NCBI GenBank assembly: GCA_000004985.1
Contig: GG738865.1
From: Naegleria gruberi
Taxonomy: Eukaryota
Direction: 5' to 3' (one strand)
DNA: 64,000 nt
Shown here: positions 3,736-42,556 of the stretch, piece by piece
How the letters are laid out: each line of letters starts with the position of its first letter
Position numbering within the stretch: position 1 is the stretch's first letter
Notes under the pieces: model-generated
What the model saw: only the letters and a program-made list of their open reading frames with translations
Databases searched by the model: none
Told to the model about the DNA's origin: nothing
Program-made: the position numbers and the translations under genes

Positions 3736-3965
3736 TAAAATATCAATTCCAAATATCCACTAAAAGTTTACATATCAATCATGCACTAAATCGATTGTGG
3801 ATGATTATTTGAAGTTGAAATTAGAAGAATGTAGTGCAGTACCATTATTATTAGCACAGTGCAGAGGGAGAGAAAAGCCAAAATCATCACACAGATAATG
3901 AAAATCTATTTATTCAGCATGCTTTTTTTTTTTAAATATTAAAAAATTTAAAATTGAACAAAAAA

Positions 3966-5609
3966 ATGGAAGAATCAGCATTGTTGTCATACGTTCATAC
4001 TCACGGAGCCATCGAAAATTCTGTTGAGTTCGCCCAATCACACAATATTGACCACCAACAATTCTATGGTCAAATCAACAGTTTATCGCTTGCTAATATT
4101 TTGGTTCTTGAAAAGAGAGAATGTACATCTGCTTTACCAAGCACCGAAGGTTTGCAAATTTTAAATCAAGGACAATCAGCTGAAATTAAATTACTTGCTG
4201 CTCTCATCAATTCTCCTGATGGTGTTGATAAGAATGTTTTACAACAACAATTAGGTGATAATTATCTTCCAGCCTTCAAGGCTTGTATGAAGAACAAGTG
4301 GATTTCACAAGAAAAAGGTTCTGATATTTTGAAAAAGTCTGCCACTGTTAGCGAATTACCAAAGGATGTTGTTGTTGATCAATTGAAAATTATTTCTGCT
4401 TCCGGATTTGTTTTCCTCGAATTAGAAAAGCAAAAGGGAAAGAGTCTTGAAGATTTAAAGACTATCGAATTTGCTAACTTGAAAGTCCAAGATGATAAAG
4501 ATCCAAGATATACTGAATTGAAGAAGGCCTGTATTGAACAAGGAAAATGTATCAATTCTAATGATTTCACTGAATTGAAATCAAGAAAACTTGTTAAAGT
4601 TGAAACTATCAAGTTCTTCTATGTTTCAAAGGGTACTGAATTTGCTCTTGAAAGAAAGAAACAAGAAACTGATTTGACAACTCAAATGATCTTGTCTAAT
4701 GAATGGCAGAATGCTTCTTTCAAGGAATACAATTTCAAGGCTACTGGTAAGAGAAATGAAAATGGTTATCTTCACACTTTGTTGAAGGTCAGAACTGAAT
4801 TCCGTAAGGTTTTCCTTGAACTTGGCTTTGAAGAAATGGCCACTAATAATTTTGTTGAAAGCTCTTTCTGGAACTTTGACGCCTTGTTCCAACCTCAACA
4901 ACACCCTGCTCGTGATGCTCACGACACTTTCTTCTTGGAAAATCCAAAACAATGTATTTCATTGCCAACTGATGGATATCTTGAAGATGTTAAGAAAATT
5001 CACGAAGAAGGAGGTTTTGGATCTATTGGTTACAGATATGACTGGAAGGTTGAAGAATCAAAGAAGAATCTTCTCCGTACTCACACAACTGCTGTCAGTA
5101 CTCGTTATTTGAGAAAACTCGGAGAAGAATTAAGCAATGGTGCCGAATTCAAGCCAAGAAAATATTTCTCAATTGATCGTGTTTTCCGTAATGAAGCTCC
5201 TGATGCTACTCACTTGTGTGAATTCCACCAAATTGAAGGTATGGTCATCGATAAGGGTTTAACTCTTGGTGACATGATTGGACTTTTCCGTGTTTTCTTT
5301 GCCAAGATTGGTATTACTGATTTGAAATTCAAACCTGCTTTTAACCCATATACAGAACCATCCATGGAAATCTTTGGTTATCACCCAATGCTCAAGAAAT
5401 GGGTTGAAGTTGGTAACTCTGGTATGTTCAGACCTGAAATGCTCCGACCAATGGGACTTCCAGAAGATGTTACTGTTTTGGCTTGGGGTCTCTCACTGGA
5501 AAGACCAACCATGATCAAATATTCTGTTGATAACATCAGAGATTTGGTTGGCCACAAGGTTGATCTTGGTGGTGTTCAAAAGAATCCAATTTGTCGTCTT
5601 AATAAGTAA
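3966..5609 (+). CDS. FARSA: phenylalanyl-tRNA synthetase alpha subunit (class II aaRS, cytoplasmic type)
   Basis: 547 aa from ATG 3966; the track ORF start at 3954 is a TTG. The N-terminus is a winged-helix region. The C-terminal catalytic core carries class II motifs (FNPYTEPSMEIF, GMVIDKGLTLGDMIG, AWGLSLERPTMIKY). An A-run precedes the ATG. Confidence 0.9.
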   Translation: MEESALLSYVHTHGAIENSVEFAQSHNIDHQQFYGQINSLSLANILVLEKRECTSALPSTEGLQILNQGQSAEIKLLAALINSPDGVDKNVLQQQLGDNYLPAFKACMKNKWISQEKGSDILKKSATVSELPKDVVVDQLKIISASGFVFLELEKQKGKSLEDLKTIEFANLKVQDDKDPRYTELKKACIEQGKCINSNDFTELKSRKLVKVETIKFFYVSKGTEFALERKKQETDLTTQMILSNEWQNASFKEYNFKATGKRNENGYLHTLLKVRTEFRKVFLELGFEEMATNNFVESSFWNFDALFQPQQHPARDAHDTFFLENPKQCISLPTDGYLEDVKKIHEEGGFGSIGYRYDWKVEESKKNLLRTHTTAVSTRYLRKLGEELSNGAEFKPRKYFSIDRVFRNEAPDATHLCEFHQIEGMVIDKGLTLGDMIGLFRVFFAKIGITDLKFKPAFNPYTEPSMEIFGYHPMLKKWVEVGNSGMFRPEMLRPMGLPEDVTVLAWGLSLERPTMIKYSVDNIRDLVGHKVDLGGVQKNPICRLNK

Positions 5610-5628
5610 ATTATTGTAAAATTTTAAT

Positions 5629-7641
5629 TCAATAGTTTAACAGATTATTAGCCGTTTGACTTCGTTTTTTGGAAGCAGCAAGATTGTTAATTCTTGGTTG
5701 AGTCACAGCTGGTTCAACCTTCTTGCTTAGTACTGCCAATTCATCTTGGTTCTTTACACTTTTACCCTTCTCTAACACAAAGAATAGAACATTTTTATCC
5801 AGAACCAATCTGGACATGGATTTGAGTAATAGCTTTTGAAGATCCAAAAACTTGGTTGTAATCAGATCATATGTTAATTGGGTCTTTTGTTCCTTATCTT
5901 GTACACCTTCTTCCGTAAGCGTCAATTCACCAAAATGTTTACCTAGATTAGGAATGCAACAGATTGAAAAATCTGATAGGGCTTTTTCATAAGTTTCCCT
6001 CAATTGTTTTGTATAATTAGCCGAGTTCATATCAGTACTAATGATTTGTTGCAATTTTTCGTATTCTTTTTTGGAGCTTTCACTAATTGAATCAAATGTT
6101 TGCTTCATTCTAAATACTGATCCATTTCTAATGGCAGAAGCTATAGCATAGAGAGCTCCATAATTTCCCACATTAGCACAGCACATTGCCAAGTTAATTA
6201 AATATTCCAAAACAGCTACTCTTCTTTCCAGTTGTTCTTCCTGTACAATCAAACTGGCAAACCATAGTGAGTATGTGTTGAAAAAATCAATATTGTCAAT
6301 AATATTTGGACATTGATACTTTTTCCTACTCTTTGTCCAATTGGCTCCAAATAATTCTTGAGGCTCAATCCTCAAAAACAATCTTCCAAACAAGTAGGAG
6401 AGATGCGAAACAAATGATTTGGTTTCTATCTGAGTGATACATTCAATCAGTTTGCTTGAACGACTCATTTTCTGTTGGATTGTTCTTTCCACTGCTGTCA
6501 ACATTTGTGAATATGAGAAGGTTGAGTTTGTTCGGGAAACAAACTTTTCAAGATCGAAATTATCGCCTAGGGTTTGGGAAATACGTTTCAATTTCCCTTC
6601 GTTACTTCTAATGAATGTTCTTAATGTACATGTAAGTTTAGTGTAGGCTTGAACTCCCTCTAGATCAAATTTCGTATAGTAGAGGTAGTACTTCTGAAGC
6701 CAATGTTTAAGTGCTCGATAGGCATTGGCTTTTGTTTCTGTTACTTTATCATCTGATGAGGACAGCCAAGAAGAAAGGCAGGTGAAAAACTGACCTGATG
6801 ATATTCCCATATTTTGATACATTAAGCAAATCTTATCAATTGGTTTTAAATTGTCAGATGTTGCAGCATTAATATATCTCAATACAGTTTCAGTATGAAT
6901 AGGCTTGGATAATTCCAATTCTAATGAATCAAGATTTGACAAATCCAGTGTATCTTCATTGATTAATCCAAGTTTTTCATTGATGATTGCAGAATTTGTT
7001 TTGATTGCAGCTGATAATAGTACATTCTCCAAATCAAAGTTACTTCTCAAGACTTTCAACTCTAGATTTGTTGATGGATTTTTAACCTTCTCGAAATGAG
7101 AAGTAAACATTGTTCTATGGTAAGGAAATTCAGTGATTGATAATTGTTCCAATTCCTTTTCGGTTTTACCAATATATTGTGTTACTAATTCTTGATCCAC
7201 ATTCGATTCAAGTTCCTTAGATACAGAAAATTGGTTTTTAACTGGCGTAAATCCCTCCAATTCGAGTTGTTCTCTGTGTTTTTCCATACGAAGAATTTCA
7301 GCACTCTTACTTAAACCCTTCTCACGTAAATACTTTTCAAAAAGTAAGAGTAATATACTTCTCCGTTCCTCATCAACTTCCGATAATTTCTTCTTACTTC
7401 CTCCCTTCTGACTTAATAGTTGCTGTTCAGCTTTAATTTTCAGAGAGACCAACGATTCAAACTCTTCCAAAGCTTGTCCAGAAACCCTCACTTCCTCATC
7501 AATTTCTGTTAGATGTTCATGTGAATTTCTTCCTTGTTGCTGATGAGCATTTCCACTCCTCGACACTGTTGCCGAGGAGCAATTATTATCACTCTTTTTA
7601 TCGGGATGATTTCCCGTCAATGGTGATTGTGCTTGGACCAT
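5629..7641 (-). CDS. Ras guanine-nucleotide exchange factor (REM + CDC25-homology RasGEF domain)
   Basis: 670 aa, ATG at 7641. Contains the RasGEF signature GNYGALYAIASAIRN and other CDC25-homology blocks, with a REM-like region upstream. The N-terminus is low-complexity and coiled-coil. Confidence 0.85.
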   Translation of the reverse strand: MVQAQSPLTGNHPDKKSDNNCSSATVSRSGNAHQQQGRNSHEHLTEIDEEVRVSGQALEEFESLVSLKIKAEQQLLSQKGGSKKKLSEVDEERRSILLLLFEKYLREKGLSKSAEILRMEKHREQLELEGFTPVKNQFSVSKELESNVDQELVTQYIGKTEKELEQLSITEFPYHRTMFTSHFEKVKNPSTNLELKVLRSNFDLENVLLSAAIKTNSAIINEKLGLINEDTLDLSNLDSLELELSKPIHTETVLRYINAATSDNLKPIDKICLMYQNMGISSGQFFTCLSSWLSSSDDKVTETKANAYRALKHWLQKYYLYYTKFDLEGVQAYTKLTCTLRTFIRSNEGKLKRISQTLGDNFDLEKFVSRTNSTFSYSQMLTAVERTIQQKMSRSSKLIECITQIETKSFVSHLSYLFGRLFLRIEPQELFGANWTKSRKKYQCPNIIDNIDFFNTYSLWFASLIVQEEQLERRVAVLEYLINLAMCCANVGNYGALYAIASAIRNGSVFRMKQTFDSISESSKKEYEKLQQIISTDMNSANYTKQLRETYEKALSDFSICCIPNLGKHFGELTLTEEGVQDKEQKTQLTYDLITTKFLDLQKLLLKSMSRLVLDKNVLFFVLEKGKSVKNQDELAVLSKKVEPAVTQPRINNLAASKKRSQTANNLLNY

Positions 7642-7767
7642 TTTTTTAAGGGAGAATACTAAGGAACATGTGGAGTGAGTGGTAAATCCAAATACTCTAG
7701 CTTTCTTAAAGGGAGAGATTCTGAAAGTGTATTGTGGGAGGATAATGAAGAGAGAGTGGATGAGAAT

Positions 7768-8475
7768 TTATTGAACAAATACCAACCATCCTAAGAAGAT
7801 ATAGTACAGAATGACAGGGTACATGCTGAGAAGTTTTCTATTCTTCTTAACGCTGTGTGTCAAGACCAATGTTGAGGTTATGCAACACCACACCACACAA
7901 CACAAGACAATAAAGAATCGAATAGTGAATGATTGGAGGAAAATGAATGCAATACTACATAACACTAATGGGAATACACAATATCCCAAAACACACACAC
8001 TTTGGAAAAAGCTAATTGTTCCTCCTAATAATTGTCCATTCAATGTAAGAATACCACTTCCAAGCCAAATAATTACAAAAACACCTCCAAAGGCAGCTCC
8101 TTTTTGTGATTCTTTGGCACTAAATCCTAAAGTAAAAGCAAGAAGAATACACAAAAGTAAAGGACCCCACAAATCCCAATTTTTCAATTCTCTATGAATT
8201 CTTTGCTCATCGTTAACAGGAACTAAAACAAGAGCGATCTTTCTTCCGATATTGGTCAAATCTCTCATGATCGTTTTTATAACAGGTTCATCAATTGTAT
8301 CCGATGTATCTTCATAATCATCAAAAAATCGATTACCATTTGTTGTTGTTGTATTTGTTGGTTGTTGTGTTTGATCCTCAGAGCCTAAAAGTGGGTTATG
8401 TTGAATATCCAATTCGTTTTGATGTCCTCCTGATGATGAGAATGGATCATCCTCCTGCATAAAAGCTTGAGACAT
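7768..8475 (-). CDS. Yip1-domain family membrane protein (YIPF-like)
   Basis: 235 aa with an acidic, Thr-rich cytosolic N-terminus followed by 5 hydrophobic helices. The Yip1-type DLWGPLLL motif is present. ATG at 8475. Confidence 0.8.
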   Translation of the reverse strand: MSQAFMQEDDPFSSSGGHQNELDIQHNPLLGSEDQTQQPTNTTTTNGNRFFDDYEDTSDTIDEPVIKTIMRDLTNIGRKIALVLVPVNDEQRIHRELKNWDLWGPLLLCILLAFTLGFSAKESQKGAAFGGVFVIIWLGSGILTLNGQLLGGTISFFQSVCVLGYCVFPLVLCSIAFIFLQSFTIRFFIVLCCVVWCCITSTLVLTHSVKKNRKLLSMYPVILYYIFLGWLVFVQ

Positions 8476-8924
8476 TTTTTAATAAAAATTAATTTTTAAA
8501 TAATAATAATAGAAGTCTAATTAGAACCTTTGTTTTTTGCCTTGTCAGCACGTCCAACCACAAATATTATTATTTTCAAAGATCTTTTCAGAATAATAAT
8601 AAATAAGAATTTAATATTCTTTTAATTAGGGCCTATTAACTTTCCGTTCAAATAACATATACTTTTCGATTCAAAAAAAATGTACAGTGGTTCGCTTCCT
8701 CCTCACAAGATTGTCTATTTCGAGTCGAAGAGAAAAGTAACTGCCTATCCGTGGGGAATTACTAGTGGAGGTTCTTCTGGTAGTAGAGATCCATTGCAGT
8801 CTTTACGAGCAAGAATGGATTTGTTGAAGAGTCCGATCTTGGATTTGGAACTCTTCTCATGGAATGGTGCTGAGGTAGGTGCAGATTGTTGGATTCATCA
8901 ATTAACTTGATATTTAAAAAGGCT
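8476..8924. promoter_or_regulatory. divergent intergenic region between the Yip1-like gene (minus) and the MYND/TPR gene (plus); presumed bidirectional promoter
   Basis: AT-rich. A-runs precede both ATGs. No elements are individually identifiable. Confidence 0.3.
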
Positions 8925-11900
8925 ATGGAATATGAAAAAGCGGAACAAGCTAGGAAAAAGAAATATGCATCGTGTTTGCAATTAGTCAAACATATTTCTG
9001 GTTTACCAACAATTTCGGATGAGGATTTAAAAAACCCTGATTGGAGTTGTGAAAATGTAGAGCTGGTATTGTTGGAAAATGGGTTATTGGTAAAGGAAAA
9101 TGCAGTGAGTACGGTAGTGCAATCTGCATTTGTTGATGATAAATTTGTGGATCAGTTTATTGACTTTATGATTGATGAGTGGAAGGATCCAACACCTTCG
9201 GAATTAATTTATACATTGGTTTTATTTAAATCCAACAAAATTTTGAATAATTTATTGAAGAGAAGACACATAATGAGGATTTGTTATTTTGTCTTGACTT
9301 GCGAAACAACCCTAGATAATATTCAATTAGCTCTCCAACAATTTTTGGAGATGTATTACAGCATTTCTATCAATGTACTTTGTTCAATTCTTCATGATGA
9401 GCTCAGAAGGTTCAAAGATTTTAAACGTAATAATTATGATTTTGCAATAGAAATGAAATGTTTGGAATTAATTCTAGTGTTGCGAGTGAAATATCCAAGT
9501 GAGAGTATTGATTCCACACTTCAATCAATCCTCGTTTATTTATTAAGATTGGGCAATCAACAAGTTTCTAAAAAACTTTGCACTAGAGCTGTTGTGGCTC
9601 TGAAAGAAATGAAAGCCAAATCAAAAGAATCGTTCGGCGCTGTAAAAAAAGCTTTTGAAACAAAGTCAATTTCAACTAAAGTGGCTGGTACCCTTGCTGA
9701 ATATTGCCAAATAACGAATACAGAGAAATATTTGGAATCAAAGATTGATGAAAAGAAGGAGCTAGGAGAAAAGGCTATTGGAACTGGTACTGATGTTGAG
9801 GATTTTATTCAAGACATTGATGTAGATCCATCTATTTATTCTATTGATGAAATGAAAAAGCATTTGGATGCTACCATTCTCAAAAATGCAACTCCCTATA
9901 TCCACTCCCAATTCATCAAGAAGCACTATGGTACTATACACCACCAAGAAGTTGAGGAGGAAAAGGAATTTCAATATTTGGCCAAAGCTATTATTCGAGT
10001 ATGTTCATGTCTAATTTTTTACTTTTTAATAACACAGTTAATTTGAAACTAACAGTTCAGAAATTATGGCACTAGAAAGATGGCACTTCTTTCCAATAAG
10101 ATGATGTACGACAATATTGATACAAGTGATTTGAAGGATTTCTCAACCCAGACTTTCAAAAGAAACCAATCATCTGACTATTTTAATTATCTAGTTCAAG
10201 ATCTTGCACCAATAATGGAATATCTAAATAGAGAGAAAATGTCACTCGGATATGATGCCATGTACATTCTTGGTGTTTGTTGTGAATATAGAGGAATGGT
10301 TGTGGAAAAGTTTTCACACAATTCATGGTGCATCAAACCAATTTATACTTATCTTATTGATAGTGGTATCTTTCAAAGAATTGAGGAGATTATTTTGAAA
10401 CATCTGAAAGGTCCACCAAGAGAACATGAAGATGATCGTATTGTCAGATTACAATACATTTGTGAAGCAATACGACTGGCTTCTGAACTATTTAATTCAA
10501 TGAAGAATAATAGAGAAATTAGCAGAGTTTCTCACATTTTGGAAACTTCTAAATTCTTTGAATACTTAATTTATTGCTTGTATGAATTTAGGGAAGAGGA
10601 AATTATGCTCAAGACCATTGAACCTTGTTTTGCATATGCTGCAGAATGTAGACAGGAAGTAGGTATATGTCTCATCTATAAAAAGTACCTGCTGGCCCAA
10701 ATCACCCAAATGTTTAACTATGCCATCCTCCTGCCTGAAACAACAAGTGATGAAAAGGTTGATTTAACCACAACCATGACTGTAATTATTAGAACACTGT
10801 ATGACATTGCCAAACCAACTGCATCTAAGGTCAATGGATCCCTTTTAAAGGGTCAGAGAAGATTACTAGCACCAATGCTTGGTTGTGGAATTTTTTCCAA
10901 ATTGGCTTCATTTCTCAAAGAAAAACAAGGAATGCTAACAGGATTTGCTGTCTCAGCCATGAACGATGACAGAGATCCACGATACCACTGGATTGCAGAA
11001 CTCGTTACTATCATGTCTTATTATTCGAGATATCCACCAATGAGAAAATGCTTTTATGAAAACAATTATGAAATTTTCACAATTTTACTATCCAAAGTAA
11101 TATTCTCACTTAATGAGGTTTTCAAGAGCAAATCTAAAAATCAGAATAGAAAGCTTCACTTCCCTAATGTTTCTGGCTCTTCCTTCCTTAATGGGTTGTC
11201 TCTTGTGAATCGTTTGTTGTGGGACCGTGAGACTAGGAAATTCATGAGCGCAAATGAAAAGAACAGATCATCTGTTAATGGATCTACTAAGCTGGAAGAC
11301 TTATGTTTTTATTGGATTAATTATTTTGTACAGAGAGTGAAAAATTCAGAAACACTAACTCAAAGTGATTTACTTGTTTGGGGAAGATCCTATTTCCTCT
11401 TGTCTAGTTTAATGATAGAAGAAGATTTCCGTTCATACCTTGCAACCAATACTCAGATTGTGGAATTACTCATGGATACAATAAGTATCAAAGCTAGGCG
11501 ATTAACTACTGATGTAAAGAACTCTTCCTGTAAATGCATAATGATATTATTGAAGGAACCAAAGGCAGCTGAAAAAATGGAGGTTGACAAGATTTTGAAA
11601 TTTGTCAACTCTGAATTCAAAAACGAAACAACAACACGACTCATCGCTCCGGAGAATGAAATTGAAACAAATGTACTCCTAGGTCTGTTGTATGATATGT
11701 TTGAAAGTCGAATTGGAGAGGATGCAAAACAACTCATCAAGGCCAAATATCCTCTATTAGCTCCTCAAATCAAGGAAATTGGCAAGTGCAACACTTGTGG
11801 AAAAGGCTCTAGTTCAGAATCATCCTTAAAGCGTTGCTCTGCCTGTAATTCTGTAAGATATTGCAGTGTTGGTATGTTATTTTTATTGTATTTAATCTTC

Positions 11901-28772: not shown

Positions 28773-30878
28773 TTACTCTAAGACTGCCAAAACAGCTTCA
28801 CCTTGAACGAGGTCACCAATAGCATATGGTAAACTCTTGATAACACCATCCTTAGTGGCCAAAATCTTGTGTTCCATCTTCATGGCTTCCATTGCAAGGA
28901 TAGTATCACCCTTTGAAACCTTATCTCCTTCCTTAACCATGACAGCTGTAATTTTACCTGGCATTGGACTCTTCAATGATCCCATAGCTGGACCACCCTT
29001 TTGTTCGAAAGCAGCCAAAACTGGAACAATTTCATATCTTTGACCATCTCTTGTGAAGAGGTAAATTGTCTTTTGGTCGTGACTAAAAGCAAGGGTTGAG
29101 TGGAATTTTCTGCCATCAACAGAAGCAACAATTTCCTTAGTAGTAGCATCATAAGAACCACTAACAACATGGCTATTCTTACCAATCTTCATGACAAATT
29201 TGCTAGTTGTTTGTGGATCCCACACATGTTCAACATTGACAGAAACAATTTGATCTTTGTGGTGTGGATGGTGGAATTCAAAGTTTTCATCGTGATTGTG
29301 ATTGAATCTGAGACCTTTGAGTTGATCGAATGGATCGCTTGAACGCTTAGTTTGTCTATCATTCTTGACAATCAATGAGAGAGTGGACAACAAGAAGACA
29401 GAATCATCAATCTTCTTTTCAGGGAAGAGTTCACTATAATACTTTTGAATAAAGTGAGTTTCCAATTCAGTGACATTCTTAAATCTTTCATTGGTGGCCA
29501 ATCTGATAAGGAATTCAATATTTGTATTCAAACCAGAAATGTGATATCTGTGGAGACAAGAAACCAATTTACGGAGAGCCAATTCTCTGTTTTCGCCCCA
29601 AACAACAAGTTTAGCAATCATTGGATCATAGTAAATGGAAACTTCATCACCTTGTCTGACACCAGTTTCAACTCTGACTTCTCCTGGAATTTCTTCTGGA
29701 GGACTCAAATAACGCAATGTACCAGTACCTGGCAAGAAGTTATTTTCTGGATTTTCAGCATAGATACGAGCTTCGAAAGCATGACCAGTTCTCTTCAATT
29801 CGTTTTGGAGAAGTGGTAATCTATTTCCAGAAGCAACTTGAAGTTGCCATTCAACCAAATCTTGACCAGTAATCATTTCAGTAACTGGATGTTCAACTTG
29901 AAGTCTAGTATTCATTTCCATAAAGTAATAACTATTATCAGCATTGTCCATAATAAATTCGACAGTACCAGCACCAACATATCCAACAGCTCTGGCAGCA
30001 TCTACAGCACTTTCACCCATAGCTCTTCTGACTTCATCTGCCAAACCTGGTGCAGGAGCTTCTTCAATAATCTTTTGATGTCTTCTTTGAACTGAACAAT
30101 CTCTTTCAAACAAGTAAACACAATTTCCGTGAGTATCAGCAAAAACTTGAATTTCAATGTGACGTGGTGTTTGAATATATTTTTCAATTAAAACTCTGTC
30201 ATCACCAAATGAAGCTTTAGCTTCACGTTTAGCAGAAGAGAGAGCTTCTTTGAATTCCTTTTCACTGTGGGCAAGCTTCATACCTTTACCACCACCTCCC
30301 AAGACAGCTTTAATCAAAATTGGGAAACCAATTTTCTTTGCTTCTTCCAATAATTTGTCTTCACCTTGTTCATCTCCGTGATAACCTGGCACAACAGGTA
30401 CTTTGGCATGTTCCATAATCTTTTTACTTTCACTCTTTGATCCCATTGAAATAATAGCTCCTTCTGGTGGTCCAATAAAAACAACACCATTCTTGGCACA
30501 GAGACTGGCAAATTTAGCATTTTCTGACAAGAAACCATAACCAGGGTGAATAGCTTGAGCTCCACATTGTTTGGCAATTTCAAGAATTTTATCACCACAC
30601 AAGTATGATTTGCTTGATTCTGGTGGACCTAACAAGTAGGCTTCATCAGCCATAGCTACGTGCATAGAATTGGCATCGGCTTCACTATAAACAGCAACAG
30701 TTTTAATACCAAGCTTTCTTGCTGTTTTCATAACTCTACAGGCAATTTCACCTCTGTTGGCAATCAAGATTTTATCAAAGAGTGGTTTCTTGTTTTGTTC
30801 ATTGCAAAGTCTGCTGCTGATGATGATTGTGATGTGAGTTGTTGATTCATAATTGTATGAAAATATTTCTTTCCGCAT
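28773..30878 (-). CDS. MCCC1: 3-methylcrotonyl-CoA carboxylase alpha subunit (biotin carboxylase + biotin-carboxyl-carrier domain), mitochondrial
   Basis: 701 aa. ATP-grasp biotin carboxylase core (FDKILIANRGEIACR, GGGGKGM) and a C-terminal biotinyl domain with the EAMKME motif. Sequence upstream at 30764..31036 (frame-shifted) encodes a presequence-like peptide MLLRNSLKQSKSIRKNVGAALST... and may be a 5' exon. Confidence 0.9.
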   Translation of the reverse strand: MRKEIFSYNYESTTHITIIISSRLCNEQNKKPLFDKILIANRGEIACRVMKTARKLGIKTVAVYSEADANSMHVAMADEAYLLGPPESSKSYLCGDKILEIAKQCGAQAIHPGYGFLSENAKFASLCAKNGVVFIGPPEGAIISMGSKSESKKIMEHAKVPVVPGYHGDEQGEDKLLEEAKKIGFPILIKAVLGGGGKGMKLAHSEKEFKEALSSAKREAKASFGDDRVLIEKYIQTPRHIEIQVFADTHGNCVYLFERDCSVQRRHQKIIEEAPAPGLADEVRRAMGESAVDAARAVGYVGAGTVEFIMDNADNSYYFMEMNTRLQVEHPVTEMITGQDLVEWQLQVASGNRLPLLQNELKRTGHAFEARIYAENPENNFLPGTGTLRYLSPPEEIPGEVRVETGVRQGDEVSIYYDPMIAKLVVWGENRELALRKLVSCLHRYHISGLNTNIEFLIRLATNERFKNVTELETHFIQKYYSELFPEKKIDDSVFLLSTLSLIVKNDRQTKRSSDPFDQLKGLRFNHNHDENFEFHHPHHKDQIVSVNVEHVWDPQTTSKFVMKIGKNSHVVSGSYDATTKEIVASVDGRKFHSTLAFSHDQKTIYLFTRDGQRYEIVPVLAAFEQKGGPAMGSLKSPMPGKITAVMVKEGDKVSKGDTILAMEAMKMEHKILATKDGVIKSLPYAIGDLVQGEAVLAVLE

Positions 30879-31438: not shown

Positions 31439-33729
31439 ATGGATGAAATAAATAACTCTCCCGTTATTGCAAATGAAGACGTGTTGGAAAAGTTAGAAAC
31501 ACAAGATACTGATGATGATCATAGCGAACAGCAGGTACAATTATCTACCTTGATACGATCTGGTGTTAATAATTTGGATAGAAATATAAAGATTACATGT
31601 TATGTTCTTCGGATCAAAAGATGTGAGTTTAGGAAATTATCAAATTGATGCTAACAAGAATAATAGTTCATATTGATTCACATTTTCTTAATGTTTCCGA
31701 TGTTTTGATTACACCAACTGTCAATAGTCAGGGTTTTGTGAGTGACAATCATATTTCTGCTGCTCAATTGGTGCAACCAAAAGATGGATATGAAATAACA
31801 ATTACCGATCGTGAAACTGTTATAGTTGTCATTCTATCACCTTTATTGAATGAATTAATAACTCAATCAAAAATTAGAGAAAACACTAAAATAATGATAA
31901 CTAAATATAAAGTGCTAATCGATGAGAAGGTGAAAGGAAAGCAGAAGGGAGTTGTTTTCATTCAATCTTTGGAAATTATTTCACAAAACAAAAAACCACG
32001 AGTTTCAATTGAAGATTTTTCACAAGTTCTCGATGAAGCAAGAGGAAATATTTGCCCACTACTGTCAGGAAGAGGATTTTACATGCCACTAGAGGATGAG
32101 GATAATTTTGATTTTGAGGTATACAGTGGTACTGTACCAGAGGTAGTAAGTAGAATAATTGAATACTTTATTTTAACACATGAAAGACTCTGGTAGAGCC
32201 ATTCGAGAATGTGTCACAATTGGCAGATATTATTGGAAGTGGCGTAAAGAAACCATTCATTGCTAGAATTTGGAAAAAGTCAAAGATAAGATACTTTGGA
32301 AAAACAAATGAGGAGAAACAATATCCAATGTTCTACGTATTATTAATTACAGACAAATCGACACCAAAAGGTGTACCAGTCACCATTTGGAATGAATTAG
32401 CATTGAAAACTTATGGAGATTTAAGTGTTGGCGATATTATTTCAGCAGAGGAATATAGAGTGAAAAATTTCCACGATTCTGGAGTTTTCTCAACCAAATT
32501 CAAAACTGAAATTTCTATCAACCCAACAAAATCACGAGTAATTCCAATTCAAAAGTTGGACGATAGAATTGCTAGCTTTGCTCCAATAGAATTTCCACTC
32601 ACAAATATTAACACTATTATTCAATCTAAACTCGATGGAACAGTACTGAATATCATGGGCATTGTAGCAAATATTGGCCCTTACAGAAGAGAAAAGAGCC
32701 AACATCAATTCTCTCAGTATAGATATGTCACATTAATGGATCCTTCTAGCATTTCTGCGATGTCTGTAAAATTATATACTAATTCAAGAAAGCACATTTT
32801 GGATACTGTTCAAATTGGTCAAGTTGTGCTTTTGACTGATGTTTCTGCACATACATTCCTAACCTGTATGGACAAGGCTCAAACTACAACTAGTAATTTA
32901 GAAAGCTCATTCATTACTCATGTATTTACAGAATCGCAATTATCTACTCTAAATTTTGCCTCTAATATCAAGGAAATTACTGGATACTTTGAGGATTTGA
33001 ATGAATGGAGAGAAAATAATAAGGACTTTTTCAATACTTGCCTTTCTGTGCCAACAACATTTGGACCTTCGAGGCAATATCCTATTCCAGACTTTCAAGA
33101 TTTTGAATCATTCAAAGCAAGATATGTCAACATTCCTTGGATTTATTACAAGGAATTATTTGAGATTCCTACTACTCTTCAACGTTTTCAAAGTACTAAT
33201 GTAATTGTCAAGGCAGTGGTGAAGGACATAACCATTGAAAATAACCTTAAAAGAAAGAGATCTCAAGAGGATGAGAGTAAGATGAAAAAGTCCAGCGATG
33301 CCAGCTCGACCAGAAGTGAAGAAAATTCCTATGAAGACGAAATTGACACTGCCTATACAATTTTAAGCCTAGAAACAGAGGTAAGTTTCAATTCAATACA
33401 ATACAAATTGGAATATGATATTAATTTAACAACCTGCAAAGGGAGTAAATGGAGATAGAAGACTGGAAATGTTAGTACCAATTTGGAATAATGAATTTTC
33501 GCATCCTGACTGTTATAATCCAACTTTTTTGGATGTAATAGATGAGCATTGCGAACAACTTTTCAAATTAAAAAGTCAAACCCATTACTTTAAGAATATG
33601 AATAGATTAATAGAGTATTATAAAAAAGAGATTGTGGACCAGACATACATTTTTGGAGTGGAAGTTCTTTGCAAAGAATATTCTGAATGCAAATATTATG
33701 TTACTCACATGTTTAAGGATGAGCCATAG
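31439..33729 (+). CDS. multi-exon gene encoding a ~714-aa protein with OB-fold-like segments (possible ssDNA-binding, RPA/POT1/RMI1-like); function unknown
   Basis: Exons are 31439..31622, 31667..32145 (or ..32142), 32187..33380 and 33442..33729. Introns are 31623..31666 (44 nt, GTGAGT...CTAAC...TAATAG), 32146..32186 (41 nt, GTAAGT...GAAAG) and 33381..33441 (61 nt, GTAAGT...CAAAG). These join four track ORFs in three frames. OB-like blocks include KPFIARIWKKSKIRYFGK...YPMFYVLLITDKSTPKGVPVTIWNELA. The C-terminal exon is Cys/His-containing. Confidence 0.55.
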
Positions 33730-38163: not shown

Positions 38164-39201
38164 ATGTTACATGAAGAAATACCACCTGTTACATCATCTC
38201 TGGAAAATCACAACAATTCATCCCGAATGTTATCCATGATGAAAAATTGTAAACTCACTCCCGAATTGATCTGTGAAGAATTTGAAGGTTTATTGCAACC
38301 TGAGAGAATTTTAAATGTCTACGTGTATGGAAGTAGATTGTATGGTAAATCGGCCGATAATGATTATTATACTATCAATCAAGATTCGGATTTTGATATC
38401 ATGCTTGTTTATGATTTTGATAATTTTCAGGCACCACAAAAGTTGACTTTCCTTTCGAATCAGAAGGAGAATAGAAATTCAGAGTTTTTCCAATTGGAAA
38501 TTCCTCTGTGGATGAAGAGAAGAGAGAGTTTAATTGAAAATAGTGTGGAAAATTCGAATAATGCATCAGAAAATCTCAACGAGATTGAGAAATTCACACC
38601 ACACATGGAGAGGCAAACACTTGAGAATGGTGAAATTATTTACAATTTCAAACAGAAACAATTTGGAGTGGATATGTGCATTTATACAAGAGAGCAATTT
38701 TTGAATCAATTGAAGAAACATCAATTTTCTGAATTGTTGGGTTTGTTTTTGGAGAGAAGCGATGAAGATTATCACAGTTTTATATTGAAAAAGACAGTTG
38801 ACTTTTCTGAAGAGTTTGAAAAGAGTGGAGTTGGAATTCAGTTGAGTAAATTGAGAGCTTCGCTTAGTCAATCAGCGTCTATGGTGTGGAAATGTTGTAG
38901 ATCCATGATGGAACACAGATTGGATTTAGATCCTCCAGAAGTAGAAGTATTCAAAGGCAAAAAGACACTTATTCACACTCTCAGAGTTTATCACTATGGA
39001 ATTCAAATTGCCAAGTTTGGAAAGATTGTGGATTGGCATGAATGTGACAAGTATTATGATGCAATATTCAAACATCCAGAAAAGTACAATTCCTTTAGAG
39101 AATTATCTCAACAATTCAACAAGATTAGACTTGCCTTACATGATGAATTTAGAAATCTTTGTCCAAAAGATGAGACACTAGCAGAGAATGATGAGGAATA
39201 A
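38164..39201 (+). CDS. candidate nucleotidyltransferase-fold protein (Pol-beta-like NTase core; possible Mab21/cGAS-like)
   Basis: 345 aa. YVYGSRLYGKSADNDYYTINQDSDFDIMLVYDF contains GS-x-x-x-G...D-x-D and a [DE]FD[IV]M[FL] block, resembling the GS...[DE]h[DE]h NTase signature (cGAS has EFDVMF). The C-terminal part is helical. Motif-level evidence only. Confidence 0.45.
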   Translation: MLHEEIPPVTSSLENHNNSSRMLSMMKNCKLTPELICEEFEGLLQPERILNVYVYGSRLYGKSADNDYYTINQDSDFDIMLVYDFDNFQAPQKLTFLSNQKENRNSEFFQLEIPLWMKRRESLIENSVENSNNASENLNEIEKFTPHMERQTLENGEIIYNFKQKQFGVDMCIYTREQFLNQLKKHQFSELLGLFLERSDEDYHSFILKKTVDFSEEFEKSGVGIQLSKLRASLSQSASMVWKCCRSMMEHRLDLDPPEVEVFKGKKTLIHTLRVYHYGIQIAKFGKIVDWHECDKYYDAIFKHPEKYNSFRELSQQFNKIRLALHDEFRNLCPKDETLAENDEE

Positions 39202-39293: not shown

Positions 39294-40591
39294 TTATTCT
39301 TCAGCAGTTTCGAGTTTTTGAATCAACTTTTCCAGAGTTTCCTTCTTCTTTGTGATTGCTTTTACAATGGCAGTTGTGTCATTTGGATCCAAAGCATCAG
39401 CAAGTTTCTTTTCCAATTCTTCAATTTCATTTGATTCTCTGTCCGCTATTGATTCAATTTCTTCCATACTGGCACGATTAATATCGTCATCTGTGAGGAA
39501 ACTTGTTGAAGCAAGATGTTTGCGAAGTTCTTCAGAAATTTGTTGAACTGGTTCAACAACTGCTGCAATTGGTTGAACAGCAGGTACTGATGATTCAACA
39601 ACACTTGTAGCTGTTGGTTGAGTAGTGATAGGAGTAGGTTCTGGTTGCTTCTTTGATTTTCTCTGTTGTTGAGATTGTTATTAAATCATGAAAATGGGAA
39701 TTTGATACTTACACCTCTCTTCTTCTTGGCAGGAGTACCATTTTGTGATTGTGAACTAGTGGCAACAGTGCTAGTAGTTGTGGATTTACTTGGAGTATTT
39801 GGTGGAGTTTCAATAATTACCGAATCAGATGAAACAGTTGTTGCTTTAGGTGAGTGAGCAATAGAATCAGCAACCATTGTGGATGATGACCTCTTCTTTC
39901 CTCGTCCTCTTCCTCTTCCAGAACTGCCTCTCTTTGATTCTTTAGTTTGTTGAGTTGAAATATGTTCCACATTTGATGATGATGAGTGTACTGCATGTTT
40001 AACACGATGATGTACATAATTATCATTTTCACTTTCAGTTTCACTTGCAAGAGAAAAGTCAAATTGATTATTTTTATCCTCAATTTCTCTTTCAATTCTA
40101 TTGAAAAAGATGATGTTAACAAAAAGTCTAATCAGATAAAAAGACATACATATTATAAACTCCAGATTGTGCAACTTGTTGAATTTTAACATCCACTTCA
40201 GAACGAAGTAATTCTGTTGAATGTCTACTCGTGGAAATGTGTAACATTTGTTGAAGTTGGGTAAGAACTTTTAACTTTTCCCAAGTAATTTCACCTTGTG
40301 CACGGAATGCACTAACCACACTACTGTATGCAGTTGTTTCTATTCAATAATGCACGTAAATATCATCCATACTTGTATCCAATAATACCTACCATATTGT
40401 CTTAAACGTTTAACGAGTTGTTTTTCAGATGACGTTATCAGAGAATCCGTATCAATCATCATGTTATCACTTCCATTTGTTGATTGTTGTTGGCTTAGAT
40501 TTGTTGTGTGATCGGTGACCAAATTATTCGATGCTGATGACGATGAAGCAGTGTTATTCACGCCCGACAACGCTTCTTGTTGTTGGCTCAT
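39294..40591 (-). CDS. ENT (EMSY N-terminal)-domain protein; 4 exons, ~380 aa
   Basis: Exons on the minus strand are 40591..40393, 40339..40150, 40097..39713 and 39662..39294. Introns are 53, 52 and 50 nt (GTAGGT/GTATGT/GTAAGT donors, AG acceptors). The spliced ENT domain ...KQLVKRLRQYETTAYSSVVSAFRAQGEITWEKLKVLTQLQQMLHISTSRHSTELLRSEV matches EMSY ...LELEAYSSVISALRAQGDLTKEKK...LSISTERH.... Ser/Thr-rich middle with RGRGRGKKR. C-terminal coiled-coil. Confidence 0.7.
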
Positions 40592-40762: not shown

Positions 40763-42556
40763 TTACATTCTAAAGACACCGAATTGAGTTGGACTTTCAA
40801 TCTTTCCATTTTCACAAGCACTCAAACTCAAACCAAGAATTCTTCTTGTGTCACGTGGATCAATGACACCATCATCCCACAATCTGGCAGATGAGAAGTA
40901 TGGGTGACCTTCATGTTCATACTTGGCTCTAATACCATTCTTGAATTCTTCCATTTCTTGTTCTGGAACTTCCTTACCTAATCTCTTCATACCTTCAACC
41001 TTAACTTGGGAAAGGACGCCAGCAGCTTGTTCACCACCCATGACAGAGATTCTAGAATTTGGCCACATGTACAAGAATCTTGGATTGTAAGCTCTACCAC
41101 ACATACCATAGTTACCAGCACCGAAACTACCACCGAGGAGGACAGTAATCTTTGGAACCTTAGCACAAGCAACAGCCATGACCATCTTGGCACCATCCTT
41201 AGCAATACCATTGGTTTCGTATTGTTTACCAACCATGAAACCAGTAATATTTTGAAGGAACAAGAGTGGAATACCTCTTTGAGAACACAATTCAACAAAG
41301 TGAGCTCCCTTTTGAGCAGATGATGAGAACAAGATACCATTGTTAGCAATAATACCAACTGGCTTACCATAAATCTTGGCAAAACCTGTCACCAATGTAG
41401 TTCCGTATAATTGTTTGAATTCATCAAATCTACTTCCATCGACAATACGAGCAATAATATCTCTGACATCGAATGGTTTTCTACCATCACGTGGAATGAT
41501 ACCTAAAATTTCATCTGGATTATATTTTGGTTCTTCAAAAGATGTTGGAACTTCATTTCTATTACTATTATTCTTTCCCAAAAAGTCAGTCTTTTTCATA
41601 TTGAGATTTGAAATAATTCTTCTTGTCAAATAAATAGCTTCAGTTTCATCATTGGCATAGTAATCAGTGACACCACTTTGTCTACAGTGAACATCAGCAC
41701 CACCCAATTCTTCATCAGTAACTTCTTCACCAGTAGCAGCCTTAACTAATGGTGGACCACCCAAATAAATAGTACCATTACCCTTTACAATAATACTTTC
41801 ATCAGCCATTGCAGGAACATAGGCACCACCTGCAGTACATTTACCCATAACTACAGCAATTTGTGGAATACCTTGAGCACTCATATTGGCTTGATTGTAG
41901 AAAATTCTACCAAAGTGAAGTTTGTCAGGGAAAACATCAGCTTGATGTTCCAAGTTGGCACCACCACTGTCAGCAATGTAAATACATGGCAAGTTATTTT
42001 GTTCAGCAATTTCTTGGGCTCTCAAATGTTTCTTTACAGTGATTGGATAATATGTACCTCCTTTAACAGTTGCATCGTTAGCAACAATTACACACAATTG
42101 ATCGTGAATTTTACCAATACCTGTAATAATACCACCAGCAGGTACTTCATCCTTTCCGTACAATTCATAACCAGCCAATTGACTGAATTCGAGGAAAGGA
42201 GATCCATCATCCAACATTCTATTAATACGATCTCTAACCAAGAGCTTGTTTCTTGAAGTGTGCATCTTTCTATACTTTTCTCCACCTCCCAACTTGATCT
42301 TTTCAACCAAATTCTTCAAATCATTAACTCCTTGAATATTGTGAGTATAATTTGCCTTGTATTCGGCATCATGATGAATATTATTTTCAAGAATATTATG
42401 AGTATTTTCAGCACTTGTAATACTATGATAAAATCTATTATTATTTGATGAAGATCCAGCAGCTAATTGTTTGGCCAAAGAACCACCAACCAAACCAGAA
42501 CGTTGTTGTTGGTTGAGAAGAATGCTAGAAATTTTCTTGGTTGAATTTTTAAGCAT
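40763..42556 (-). CDS. MCCC2: 3-methylcrotonyl-CoA carboxylase beta subunit (carboxyltransferase), mitochondrial
   Basis: 597 aa with an N-terminal presequence-like region. Carboxyltransferase N and C domains ([62 protein letters not shown]). Confidence 0.9.

What the first reader, a model, noticed from the sequence alone, without database searches (positions are those of the whole stretch)
38164..39201. Candidate minimal nucleotidyltransferase (cGAS/Mab21-like?) protein
YGSRLYGKSADNDYY...DSDFDIML contains the GS...DxD elements of Pol-beta-superfamily NTases and a [DE]FD[IV]M[FL] block reminiscent of cGAS/Mab21 (EFDVMF). At 345 aa with a helical C-terminal half it could be a compact cGAS-like receptor or other signalling NTase. 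Such proteins in amoebozoa would be of immunological and evolutionary interest. Support is motif-level only.
Basis: inference. Interest (0 to 1): 0.5.

Follow-up and report, generated by a model that had tools for sequence, protein, structure and literature searches.

The report
Phage-type RlaP-like nucleotidyltransferase in Naegleria
This is a real Naegleria gruberi gene for a small nucleotide-adding enzyme, but it is not a cGAS-like immune sensor: it belongs to a compact, mostly bacteriophage-borne branch of the RlaP RNA-repair enzymes and most likely adds a nucleotide or two to broken RNA ends.

Summary
The window is Naegleria gruberi NEG-M (Heterolobosea, not Amoebozoa). The gene is already deposited as "predicted protein" D2VDR8, with a probably faulty 300-aa model.

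It is a Pol-beta-superfamily nucleotidyltransferase (NTase):
- G56-S57, D76-x-D78 and D170 are conserved.
- A high-confidence AlphaFold model (pLDDT 89.9) shows an alpha/beta NTase core plus a helical C-terminal domain.

Instead the protein belongs to a family of about 1000 cluster representatives. Most are ~200 aa and sit in large or jumbo phages. The family aligns profile-to-profile with T4 NrdC.11, a bona fide RlaP, across both domains (96.4% probability, E 1.2e-9).

Seven heterolobosean copies form one clade (198/200 bootstraps). That clade sits within a wider eukaryotic subclade that carries a ~70-residue insertion.

RlaP adds 1-2 nucleotides to RNA 3'-OH ends during RNA repair, and N. 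gruberi already has 15 RNA ligases. The RNA-repair role here is inferred from homology, not shown. It is a moderately interesting new variant of a known kind.

The parts
38164..39201 (+). Complete intronless ORF, 345 aa plus stop. It encodes a compact RlaP-like Pol-beta nucleotidyltransferase and corresponds to N. gruberi NAEGRDRAFT_67016 / D2VDR8.
   Evidence: ORF list. Orthologs at E 1e-104 and 1e-102. The public model is 100% identical over residues 26-307.
38245..38688 (+). N-terminal NTase domain (about residues 28-175), with an alpha/beta core that includes the lineage-specific insertion.
   Evidence: AF2 secondary structure, strands 49-55, 77-83, 95-98 and 169-174. Sub-threshold Polbeta PF18765 match over residues 47-90. 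Profile hits to MntA, ANT and KNTase NTase domains.
38326..38370 (+). YGSRLYGKSADNDYY: the hG[GS] nucleotide-binding motif (G56-S57 at 38329-38334), followed by an 8-residue loop insertion relative to the phage homologs.
   Evidence: G56 and S57 are invariant in 61/61 family members.
38383..38406 (+). DSDFDIML: the hDhDh metal-binding strand (D76 at 38389-38391, D78 at 38395-38397).
   Evidence: D76 and D78 are invariant in 61/61. They align with D22/D24 of T4 NrdC.11.
38419..38658 (+). Heterolobosean insertion (about residues 86-165) between the DxD strand and the third-Asp strand. It contains the conserved LTFLSNQKEN element and a helical hairpin. Compact phage homologs have only ~20 residues here.
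   Evidence: Alignments A1 and A5. AF2 helices 107-130 and 134-142. In P0018 the third Asp follows D38 by 20 residues.
38671..38673 (+). D170, the third catalytic carboxylate, on strand 169-174.
   Evidence: Invariant in the eukaryotic subclade. D 42 / N 16 / E 2 of 61 family-wide. Aligns with the conserved Asp of NrdC.11 in 'IDHELYS'.
38689..39195 (+). C-terminal all-helical, HEPN/KNTase-C-like bundle domain (about residues 176-344), the presumed acceptor-substrate binding domain.
38962..39006 (+). KTLIHTLRVYHYGIQ: the signature K267-x3-H271-x2-R274-x6-Q281 motif, shared with RlaP's invariant K243/H247/R250/Q254.
   Evidence: K267 and R274 are invariant; H271 and Q281 are conserved in 60/61. 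NrdC.11-clade invariants. Aligned column by column.
39085..39198 (+). C-terminal residues 308-345 (conserved terminal helices). They are missing from the public 300-aa gene model, which diverges here.
   Evidence: BLASTP against P0179/D2VDR8 is identical only for residues 26-307. Family-wide conservation of I321, F329, P334 and K335.

Best explanation
The gene encodes a two-domain Pol-beta-superfamily nucleotidyltransferase of the RlaP lineage (RNA-ligase-associating Pol-beta). RlaP is the family of T4 NrdC.11 and Pseudomonas RlaP.

Proposed mechanism:
- An N-terminal minimal NTase domain (G56-S57, D76, D78, D170) binds NTP and two divalent metals.
- A C-terminal helical bundle carrying the conserved R231, K267, H271, R274 and Q281 forms the other wall of a cleft that holds the acceptor.
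- By homology, the enzyme most likely adds one or a few nucleotides, without a template, to the 3'-OH of broken or trimmed RNAs such as tRNA fragments.
- That would restore ends so that Naegleria's many RNA ligases can reseal a functional molecule.

Evolutionary picture: the family is a compact version of RlaP, with a helical domain about 110 residues shorter. It is overwhelmingly found in large or jumbo bacteriophages. A single transfer gave rise to a eukaryotic subclade comprising Naegleria, Willaertia and uncultured protists. That subclade then duplicated (N. gruberi has two paralogs) and acquired a ~70-residue insertion.

Shown here: a real conserved gene, the NTase fold and triad, homology to RlaP over both domains, phage-centred distribution, and monophyly of the eukaryotic copies.

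Inferred, not shown: RNA as the acceptor, +1/+2 addition, and a role in RNA repair.
For: (1) Homology to RlaP. hhalign of the 61-member family profile against T4 NrdC.11 alone gives 95.8% probability, E 6.8e-9. Against a 6-member NrdC.11-clade profile it gives 96.4%, E 1.2e-9 over 180 columns. That alignment covers HMM positions 28-209 of 232 against 8-303 of 341. It takes in GS, DxD, the third-Asp strand, the L-[ED]-x-L-x-x-P hairpin and the K-x-L-x-H-x-x-R...Q motif.

(2) Bridging members. P0068 (E 2e-22 to our profile) passes the PF10127 gathering score, 25.9 against 23, over profile positions 19-237 of 249. P0013 scores 28.2 bits. In all, 24 of 61 members hit RlaP at E<=0.05, best 2.6e-7.

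(3) Fold. The AF2 model has pLDDT 89.9 and shows an NTase core plus a helical domain. That is the architecture reported for the PfRlaP crystal structure (PMC12776372). Foldseek against viral models returns phage 'nucleotidyltransferase' entries, one 'RNA repair pathway protein', and modules embedded in giant-virus proteins annotated Endonuclease V or exonuclease.

(4) Links to RNA and tRNA.
- Two members are fused to a YqeY/GatB-type domain, PF09424, at 42.8 and 45.6 bits against a cut-off of 27.
- In PBC2-type phage loci the gene order is NTase - S8 protease - Rnl1 RNA ligase (PF09511) - PNK/HD kinase - ClpP - DNA ligase.
- Seven loci carry a 'Swiss-Army-Knife RNA repair' HAD plus tRNA_bind protein.
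- tRNA genes lie within 6 kb in 15 of 60 loci.

(5) Published biochemistry. RlaP adds 1-2 NMPs to RNA 3'-OH, prefers damaged tRNA mimics, and does not act on DNA or protein (PMC12776372). RlaP is described as the most prevalent NTase of jumbo phages and as tracking RNA ligases (PMC7824862).

(6) Organism fit. [quoted passage not shown]

(7) The active site is intact and invariant in all 10 eukaryotic-subclade sequences.

(8) It is a bona fide nuclear gene. The flanking genes are ordinary eukaryotic genes. Synteny with the ENT-domain gene is kept in N. fowleri and N. lovaniensis.
Against: - The window protein itself does not reach any Pfam threshold. It has no PF10127 hit at E<=10, and Polbeta scores 19.1 against a cut-off of 26.9.
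- The hhalign probability is high but the identity is only ~17-20%.
- The eukaryotic subclade has lost the basic KAKKK patch that is conserved in the phage members (residues 244-248 are CCRSM). The conserved Glu of the LEC motif has shifted by two positions, E192 to E190. The acceptor substrate may therefore have changed.
- Association with RNA-repair genes in phage loci is seen in only about 15% of the 88 loci, and no background rate was computed. Other recurrent neighbours are ClpP (15 loci), NAMPT (9) and ADP-ribosylglycohydrolase (8).
- The third Asp is Asn in 16 of 61 family members, whereas RlaP is described as having three strictly conserved Asp.
- There is no biochemical or expression evidence for this protein.
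Confidence: 0.55

Rival explanations
1. One reading: a compact cGAS/Mab21/OAS/CD-NTase-like sensor that makes cyclic or linear oligonucleotide second messengers for immune signalling.
For: The GS...DxD...D triad is present. The D78-to-D170 spacing of 92 residues coincidentally equals my recollection of human cGAS (D227 to D319), which is from memory and untested. The bilobal NTase plus helical lobe layout also fits.
Against: - No Mab-21, OAS1_C or SMODS Pfam match, either for the window protein at E<=10 or for any of 61 members at E<=0.05.
- No PADLOC defence-system match at all at E<=1.
- The 92-residue spacing comes from a lineage-specific insertion. Compact homologs have ~20 residues there.
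- The C-terminal domain is a 4-helix HEPN/KNTase-C-type bundle that aligns to RlaP.
Confidence: 0.03
2. A HalB-like enzyme, as in the bacterial Hailong defence system: a protein-primed, template-independent poly-dA or oligonucleotide synthase whose product gates a partner effector.
Against: - The family profile does not detect HalB by sequence at E<=10.
- The channel gene has no homolog anywhere in this 64-kb N. gruberi window, so that adjacency is not conserved.
- The upstream TM gene is not conserved next to the N. lovaniensis ortholog.
- No recurrent membrane-protein partner was identified among the 20 commonest neighbour families in 88 phage loci. An M50 peptidase recurs in 8 loci.
- The family is carried mostly by phages rather than by defence islands.
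Confidence: 0.07
3. A small-molecule or protein adenylyltransferase of the KNTase/ANT/Lnu or MntA/GlnE/DrrA type. It would AMPylate an antibiotic-like metabolite or a protein hydroxyl rather than RNA.
Against: - Those sequence matches cover only the NTase domain (about 50-75 columns), whereas RlaP aligns over both domains.
- The signature K-H-R-Q motif is shared with RlaP, not with ANT or KNTase.
- Context points to RNA: YqeY fusions and Rnl1/PNK/tRNA-binding neighbours.
- No HEPN toxin partner was found, and there is no conserved Rx4-6H motif (alignments).
Confidence: 0.12
4. An enzyme of NAD+/ADP-ribose metabolism, for example an unconventional NMN adenylyltransferase, working with phage NAD-salvage genes to counter NAD-depleting defences.
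For: A NAMPT gene lies immediately upstream in the same orientation in 9 loci. An ADP-ribosylglycohydrolase lies downstream in 8 loci, largely the same jumbo-phage loci.
Against: This concerns only about 10% of loci. From general knowledge, known NMNATs are Rossmann-fold HIGH-motif enzymes, not Pol-beta NTases. The adjacency may simply reflect the auxiliary-metabolism region of jumbo phages. There is no such context in Naegleria.
Confidence: 0.05

Closest known systems
[quoted passage not shown]
   Same: - N-terminal NTase plus C-terminal helical domain.
- GS, DxD and a third Asp.
- A post-NTase hairpin with L-[ED]-x-L-x-x-P.
- The K-x-L-x-H-x-x-R...Q motif in the helical domain.
- Profile-profile probability of 96.4% over both domains.
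- Abundant in large phages (PMC7824862).
- Some members lie next to Rnl1/PNK.
   Different: - The window protein does not reach the PF10127 threshold.
- The helical domain is about 110 residues shorter than in NrdC.11.
- The eukaryotic subclade has a ~70-residue insertion inside the NTase domain and lacks the basic KAKKK patch.
- The activity has not been tested.
HalB of the Hailong anti-phage system (PDB 9dbh)
   Different: There is no detectable sequence relationship. There is no conserved channel partner. HalB is protein-primed and makes poly-dA (PMC13434031), which nothing here indicates.
KNTase/ANT/Lnu nucleotidyltransferases and MNT-HEPN (MntA-HepT) modules
   Different: Sequence similarity is confined to the NTase core. 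The C-terminal bundle has no conserved Rx4-6H RNase motif. There is no toxin-antitoxin gene pairing. The substrates of those enzymes (antibiotics, or a Tyr of HepT) are not indicated here.
cGAS / Mab21 / OAS / bacterial CD-NTases
   Same: The same Pol-beta superfamily catalytic triad, on an alpha/beta core.
   Different: No family-level match by sequence or fold. The C-terminal lobe is a different type.

Membership tests
Pol-beta nucleotidyltransferase superfamily | hG[GS] motif | tested here: met
   G56-S57 are invariant in 61/61 aligned members.
Pol-beta nucleotidyltransferase superfamily | [DE]h[DE]h metal-binding strand | tested here: met
   D76-F-D78-I. Both Asp are invariant in 61/61.
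Pol-beta nucleotidyltransferase superfamily | Third carboxylate on a neighbouring beta-strand | tested here: met
   D170 lies on strand 169-174. It is invariant in the eukaryotic subclade. Family-wide it is D 42 / N 16 / E 2.
Pol-beta nucleotidyltransferase superfamily | alpha/beta NTase core fold | tested here: met
Pol-beta nucleotidyltransferase superfamily | Curated Pfam threshold (PF18765 or PF01909) | tested here: not met
   The window protein scores 19.1 bits against a cut-off of 26.9. However, 56 and 55 of 61 relatives match these models at E<=0.05.
RlaP (PF10127) | Pfam gathering score | tested here: not met
   The window protein has no hit at E<=10. 24 of 61 family members hit at E<=0.05. 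P0068 (25.9 bits) and P0013 (28.2 bits) exceed the gathering score of 23.
RlaP (PF10127) | Homology over both the NTase and the helical domain to bona fide members | tested here: met
   hhalign against the T4 NrdC.11 clade gives 96.4%, E 1.2e-9, 180 columns. K267/H271/R274/Q281 align with K243/H247/R250/Q254.
RlaP (PF10127) | N-terminal NTase plus C-terminal helical domain forming a cleft | tested here: met
   AF2 domain layout compared with the PfRlaP description (PMC12776372). The cleft geometry could not be inspected because no coordinates were available.
RlaP (PF10127) | Gene neighbourhood with RNA ligases or other RNA-repair genes | tested here: inconclusive
   - Rnl1 plus PNK/HD occur in about 6 of 88 phage loci, and SAK-HAD plus tRNA_bind in 7.
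- No background rate was computed.
- Operon logic does not apply to the eukaryotic gene.
- N. gruberi has 15 RNA ligases genome-wide (PMC4408790).
RlaP (PF10127) | Adds 1-2 NMP to RNA 3'-OH | not testable with these tools
   Requires biochemistry.
cGAS / Mab21 / OAS / CD-NTase | Match to Mab-21, OAS1_C or SMODS models in Pfam, or to defence-system models in PADLOC | tested here: not met
   No Mab-21, OAS1_C or SMODS hit in Pfam. No PADLOC hit at all for this protein at E<=1.
cGAS / Mab21 / OAS / CD-NTase | Fold similarity to solved cGAS, OAS or CD-NTase structures | tested here: not met
cGAS / Mab21 / OAS / CD-NTase | Synthesis of cyclic or 2'-5' oligonucleotides | not testable with these tools
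   Requires biochemistry.
Hailong HalB | Sequence homology to HalB | tested here: not met
   The family profile does not hit 9dbh at E<=10.
Hailong HalB | Structural similarity | tested here: inconclusive
Hailong HalB | Conserved adjacent membrane or channel effector (HalA) | tested here: not met
   The TM neighbour is not conserved. The Ion_trans neighbour seen in N. fowleri and N. lovaniensis is absent from the window. No recurrent channel-type partner was identified in the phage loci.
HEPN RNase domain | Conserved Rx4-6H motif | tested here: not met
   R246-x4-H251 occurs only in the window sequence. Position 246 is K in the orthologs, and the motif is absent in the phage members (alignments).
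HEPN RNase domain | Four-helix up-down bundle | tested here: inconclusive

The most novel reading that the evidence does not exclude
The eukaryotic subclade (Naegleria, Willaertia and uncultured protists) may have taken on a new function. It lost the phage-type basic patch, shifted a conserved Glu, gained a ~70-residue insertion and duplicated. It might now make or tailor an oligonucleotide signal, in a HalB-like or otherwise immune-related way, or modify a non-RNA acceptor. That would be a phage gene domesticated into a new protist pathway rather than a simple RNA end-repair enzyme.
Probability: 0.08. Interest if true: 0.7.

Novelty: new variant of a known kind. Interest (0 to 1): 0.35.

Why it matters
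If the inference holds, Naegleria carries a phage-derived RNA end-tailoring enzyme alongside its 15 RNA ligases. That would add the missing "restore lost nucleotides" step to what looks like an unusually elaborate RNA-repair toolkit for a eukaryote.

The analysis also delineates a large family of about 1000 clusters. It is a compact RlaP-like family, mostly from jumbo phages, that the Pfam RlaP model largely misses. A monophyletic eukaryotic offshoot sits inside it.

For the scan, the practical result is negative. This is not evidence for a cGAS-like innate-immune sensor in an amoeba. The public gene model D2VDR8 should be corrected.

Tried and rejected
- **Single-sequence and 7-sequence profile searches of the PDB** gave nothing meaningful.
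- **The first AF2 model** (7 sequences) was mediocre, pLDDT 68.6. It was replaced by a 61-sequence model, which gave the same ranking of folds.
- **The afdb50 fold library** was unavailable.
- **The search for related loci with the broad alignment A2** failed because it had no conserved stretch to search with. I used the tighter A3 instead.
- **A giant-virus vector.** Scanning IMG/VR with the eukaryotic-subclade profile found no relative, so this route is unsupported. Klosneuvirus-type giant viruses do have structurally similar compact NTases.
- **A Hailong-like NTase-plus-channel pair.** Rejected because neither the TM neighbour nor the Ion_trans neighbour is conserved.
- **HEPN RNase activity of the C-terminal bundle.** Rejected because there is no conserved Rx4-6H motif.
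- **A viral insertion or contaminant.** Rejected because the flanks match N. gruberi proteins exactly, synteny with the ENT gene is kept across three species, and GC content equals that of the neighbours.
- **An obligate operon partner in phages.** None was found. The commonest neighbour, ClpP, occurs in only 15 of 88 loci.
- **A Biopython NJ run** timed out and was redone with a numpy implementation.
Full report
**Observation**

The window contains a single uninterrupted ORF at 38164-39201 on the + strand, 345 aa.
- YGSRLYGKSADNDYY is residues 55-69.
- DSDFDIML is residues 74-81 (DNA read).

The organism is not an amoebozoan. Five flanking ORFs are identical to Naegleria gruberi NEG-M proteins on an 820-kb scaffold:
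- methylcrotonoyl-CoA carboxylase alpha and beta;
- a PPR protein;
- kinesin-1;
- a 205-aa membrane protein.

Naegleria belongs to Discoba/Heterolobosea.

The gene is already deposited as 'predicted protein' NAEGRDRAFT_67016 / D2VDR8, but as a 300-aa model. That model starts at M26 and diverges after residue 307. The divergent tail removes C-terminal helices that are conserved across the whole family. The continuous ORF is therefore the better-supported model.

**Is it a nucleotidyltransferase?**

Yes. Taken alone, the protein reaches only a sub-threshold Polbeta match (PF18765, 19.1 bits against a cut-off of 26.9, residues 47-90). Homologs settle the question.
- Orthologs in N. fowleri and N. 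lovaniensis (48% identity), a second N. gruberi paralog (D2VRM3, 41-43%) and Willaertia magna were found.
- An exhaustive profile search gave 996 cluster representatives at E<=1e-3, of which 501 reach E<=1e-10. Most are proteins of about 200 aa.
- In a 61-sequence alignment G56, S57, D76, D78, K267 and R274 are invariant. H271 and Q281 are conserved in 60/61 and R231 in 59/61.
- The third carboxylate, D170, is D in 42, N in 16 and E in 2. It is invariant in the eukaryotic subclade.
- With this alignment AlphaFold2 gives a confident model (pLDDT 89.9, pTM 0.89). It has an alpha/beta NTase core, with D170 on strand 169-174, and an all-helical C-terminal half.

**Is it cGAS/Mab21-like?**

No.
- Pfam gives no Mab-21, OAS1_C or SMODS hit for the window protein at E<=10, nor for any of the 61 members at E<=0.05.
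- PADLOC, a library of anti-phage defence-system models, returns nothing for this protein.
- A profile search of PDB sequences finds MntA-type minimal NTases, ANT/KNTase, TUTases and poly(A) polymerases, through the NTase core only.

The 'EFDVMF-like' block is the generic hDhDh strand of the superfamily. The 92-residue gap to the third Asp results from a ~70-residue insertion found only in the heterolobosean sequences. Compact homologs have about 20 residues there.

**What family is it?**

Many compact members give weak hits to RlaP (PF10127): 24 of 61 at E<=0.05, with the best at 2.6e-7. Two members of the same family pass the RlaP gathering score. P0068 scores 25.9 bits over profile positions 19-237 of 249, and P0013 scores 28.2 bits.

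I fetched T4 NrdC.11, which the RlaP characterisation paper names as a family member (PMC12776372). I built a 6-sequence profile of its clade. The results were:
- hhalign of the 61-member family against NrdC.11 alone gives 95.8%, E 6.8e-9.
- Against the clade profile it gives 96.4%, E 1.2e-9 over 180 columns spanning both domains.
- The alignment pairs GS, DxD, the third-Asp strand ('VDMCIYTREQF' with 'IDHELYSLKYF') and the following hairpin ending L-[ED]-x-L-x-x-P.
- In the helical domain it pairs 'KKTLIHTLRVYHYGIQIAKFGKI' with RlaP's invariant 'DWKALSHALRGGLQLIEIYKTGDL'.

The family is therefore a compact relative of RlaP, with a helical domain about 110 residues shorter. The Pfam model largely misses it.

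**Distribution and evolution**

- By tblastn, the compact form occurs in 60 GenBank phage records. Large Bacillus phages, including phage G and PBC2/Tsamsa-like phages, account for 35, Prevotella phages for 15, and Xanthomonas phages for 3. It is annotated only as 'nucleotidyltransferase'.
- A shared peptide pattern found 8 loci in one genome each of 185,579 prokaryotic species. All 8 are MAGs. One is the same 425-kb contig that IMG/VR lists as viral.
- That pattern plus one more gave at least 100 loci in IMG/VR, many on 300-540-kb contigs.
- In a neighbour-joining tree of 201 columns the seven heterolobosean sequences are monophyletic in 198 of 200 bootstraps.
- Their nearest sisters are P0017, P0011, P0066 and P0022.
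- The contigs of P0011 and P0017 carry plainly eukaryotic genes: Prp21/Surp, Arm/importin-like, WD40, S10 carboxypeptidase and OPT transporters.

So a eukaryotic subclade is nested in a phage-dominated family. It shares derived features: loss of the KAKKK patch and a shift of the conserved Glu by two positions.

Foldseek against viral models shows similar compact NTases in Klosneuvirus-type giant viruses, with TM-score relative to target of 0.74-0.81. It also finds such modules inside giant-virus proteins annotated Endonuclease V or exonuclease. A scan of IMG/VR with the eukaryotic profile found nothing, so the donor remains open.

In Naegleria the gene sits among ordinary nuclear genes. It keeps synteny with the downstream ENT-domain gene in three species. 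Its GC content matches the neighbourhood.

**Mechanism**

RlaP has been characterised biochemically (PMC12776372).
- It transfers one or two NMPs, or dNMPs, to the 3'-OH of RNA.
- It prefers cleaved-tRNA mimics.
- It does not act on DNA or protein.
- It restores aminoacylation of tRNAs that lost nucleotides.
- Its structure is an NTase domain plus a helical domain forming a cleft.

RlaP is described as the most prevalent NTase of jumbo phages, and its distribution tracks the RNA ligases (PMC7824862).

Context for the compact family points the same way, but not strongly.
- Two members are fused to a YqeY/GatB-type domain above the Pfam threshold.
- PBC2-type loci read NTase - S8 protease - Rnl1 - PNK/HD - ClpP - DNA ligase.
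- Seven loci have a 'Swiss-Army-Knife RNA repair' HAD plus tRNA-binding protein.
- tRNA genes lie within 6 kb in 15 of 60 loci.
- Other recurrent neighbours are ClpP (15 of 88 loci), NAMPT directly upstream (9) and ADP-ribosylglycohydrolase (8).
- There is no obligate partner, and no background rate was computed.

I therefore propose that this protein is an RNA 3'-end tailoring NTase that feeds those ligases. Homology and an intact active site are shown. The RNA acceptor and the repair role are inferred. The altered basic patch in the eukaryotic clade is a genuine caveat.

**Rivals**

- **Antibiotic or protein adenylyltransferase.** It shares only the NTase core by sequence.
- **An NAD-related role.** It rests on the NAMPT adjacency seen in about 10% of phage loci.
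- **HEPN RNase activity.** It lacks a conserved Rx4-6H motif.

**Verdict**

The protein is a divergent, insertion-bearing eukaryotic member of a compact RlaP-like family centred on large phages. That makes it a new variant of a known kind, of moderate interest.

Noticed in passing
window 38239-39201 (public model D2VDR8 / XP_002677691.1): The deposited N. gruberi gene model (300 aa) starts at M26. After residue 307 it switches to a different reading frame, giving the tail 'LDLPYMMNLEIFVQKM', which deletes family-conserved C-terminal helices. This is probably a mis-predicted 3' intron.
   Followed up: partly
N. gruberi D2VRM3 (P0156/P0005), not in the window: A second paralog (368 aa, 41-43% identical) has a ~40-residue basic N-terminal extension with no acidic residues until its last three positions (MFKSFSITKCQTLRPNTFNALKYGYRAFSCGKSAKVHHEK). 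It looks like an organellar presequence, so the two paralogs may work in different compartments.
   Followed up: no
L099 7202-9348 and L100 5590-7836 (N. lovaniensis, N. fowleri): An Ion_trans (PF00520) channel gene lies immediately downstream of the NTase ortholog in the same orientation in both species. It has no homolog anywhere in this N. gruberi window, where the ENT-domain gene (about 39294-40340, minus strand) follows directly.
   Followed up: yes
L013, L016, L019, L020, L021, L044, L056, L057, L087 (IMG/VR jumbo-phage contigs), genes at ~1900-5800 and ~6600-9200: A recurrent NAMPT - compact NTase - ADP-ribosylglycohydrolase arrangement, with a UvrD-type helicase in some of these loci. 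It may be an NAD-salvage or counter-defence module in jumbo phages.
   Followed up: partly
P0008 (419 aa) and P0159 (443 aa), metagenomic proteins: The compact NTase is fused C-terminally to a YqeY/GatB-type domain (PF09424, 42.8 and 45.6 bits against a cut-off of 27). This is a domain fusion pointing to a tRNA-related substrate.
   Followed up: partly
L101 12240-13454 (JGI metagenome contig with eukaryotic genes): A 404-aa protein combining DarT (DNA ADP-ribosyltransferase toxin) and Macro domains is encoded on a contig that otherwise carries eukaryotic genes (Prp21/Surp, Arm, WD40). Bacterial toxin-antitoxin domains seem to be present in a protist.
   Followed up: no
L027 2118-2190, L028 8897-8970, L055 10235-10308: tRNAs with a CUA anticodon (amber suppressors, labelled 'Pyl' by ARAGORN) sit near the NTase in three large phage contigs. 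This suggests TAG-recoded phages.
   Followed up: no
L007 (a 'Candidatus Pacearchaeota' MAG contig) = L052 (IMGVR_UViG_3300035208_004923): The same 425,361-bp contig is filed both as an archaeal MAG contig and as a viral genome. It is probably a jumbo phage binned into a MAG.
   Followed up: no
BFVD entries A0A5K0U7I7 (Yasminevirus, 1081 aa) and A0A3G4ZN96 (Terrestrivirus, 794 aa): Giant-virus proteins annotated Endonuclease V and exonuclease contain a module structurally similar to this NTase (TM-score relative to the query of about 0.5 over ~315 columns). These are possible NTase-nuclease fusions for nucleic-acid end processing.
   Followed up: no
window 28773-30878 (-) and 40763-42556 (-): Both subunits of 3-methylcrotonoyl-CoA carboxylase (alpha D2VDR3, beta D2VDS0) are encoded about 10 kb apart on the same strand. 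That is unusually close linkage for a eukaryote.
   Followed up: no
window 32211-33458 (+): An ORF with RADX / DUF5088 matches (PF17659 at 41.6 bits, PF17008 at 38.7 bits), i.e. an RPA-related OB-fold protein, in a heterolobosean.
   Followed up: no
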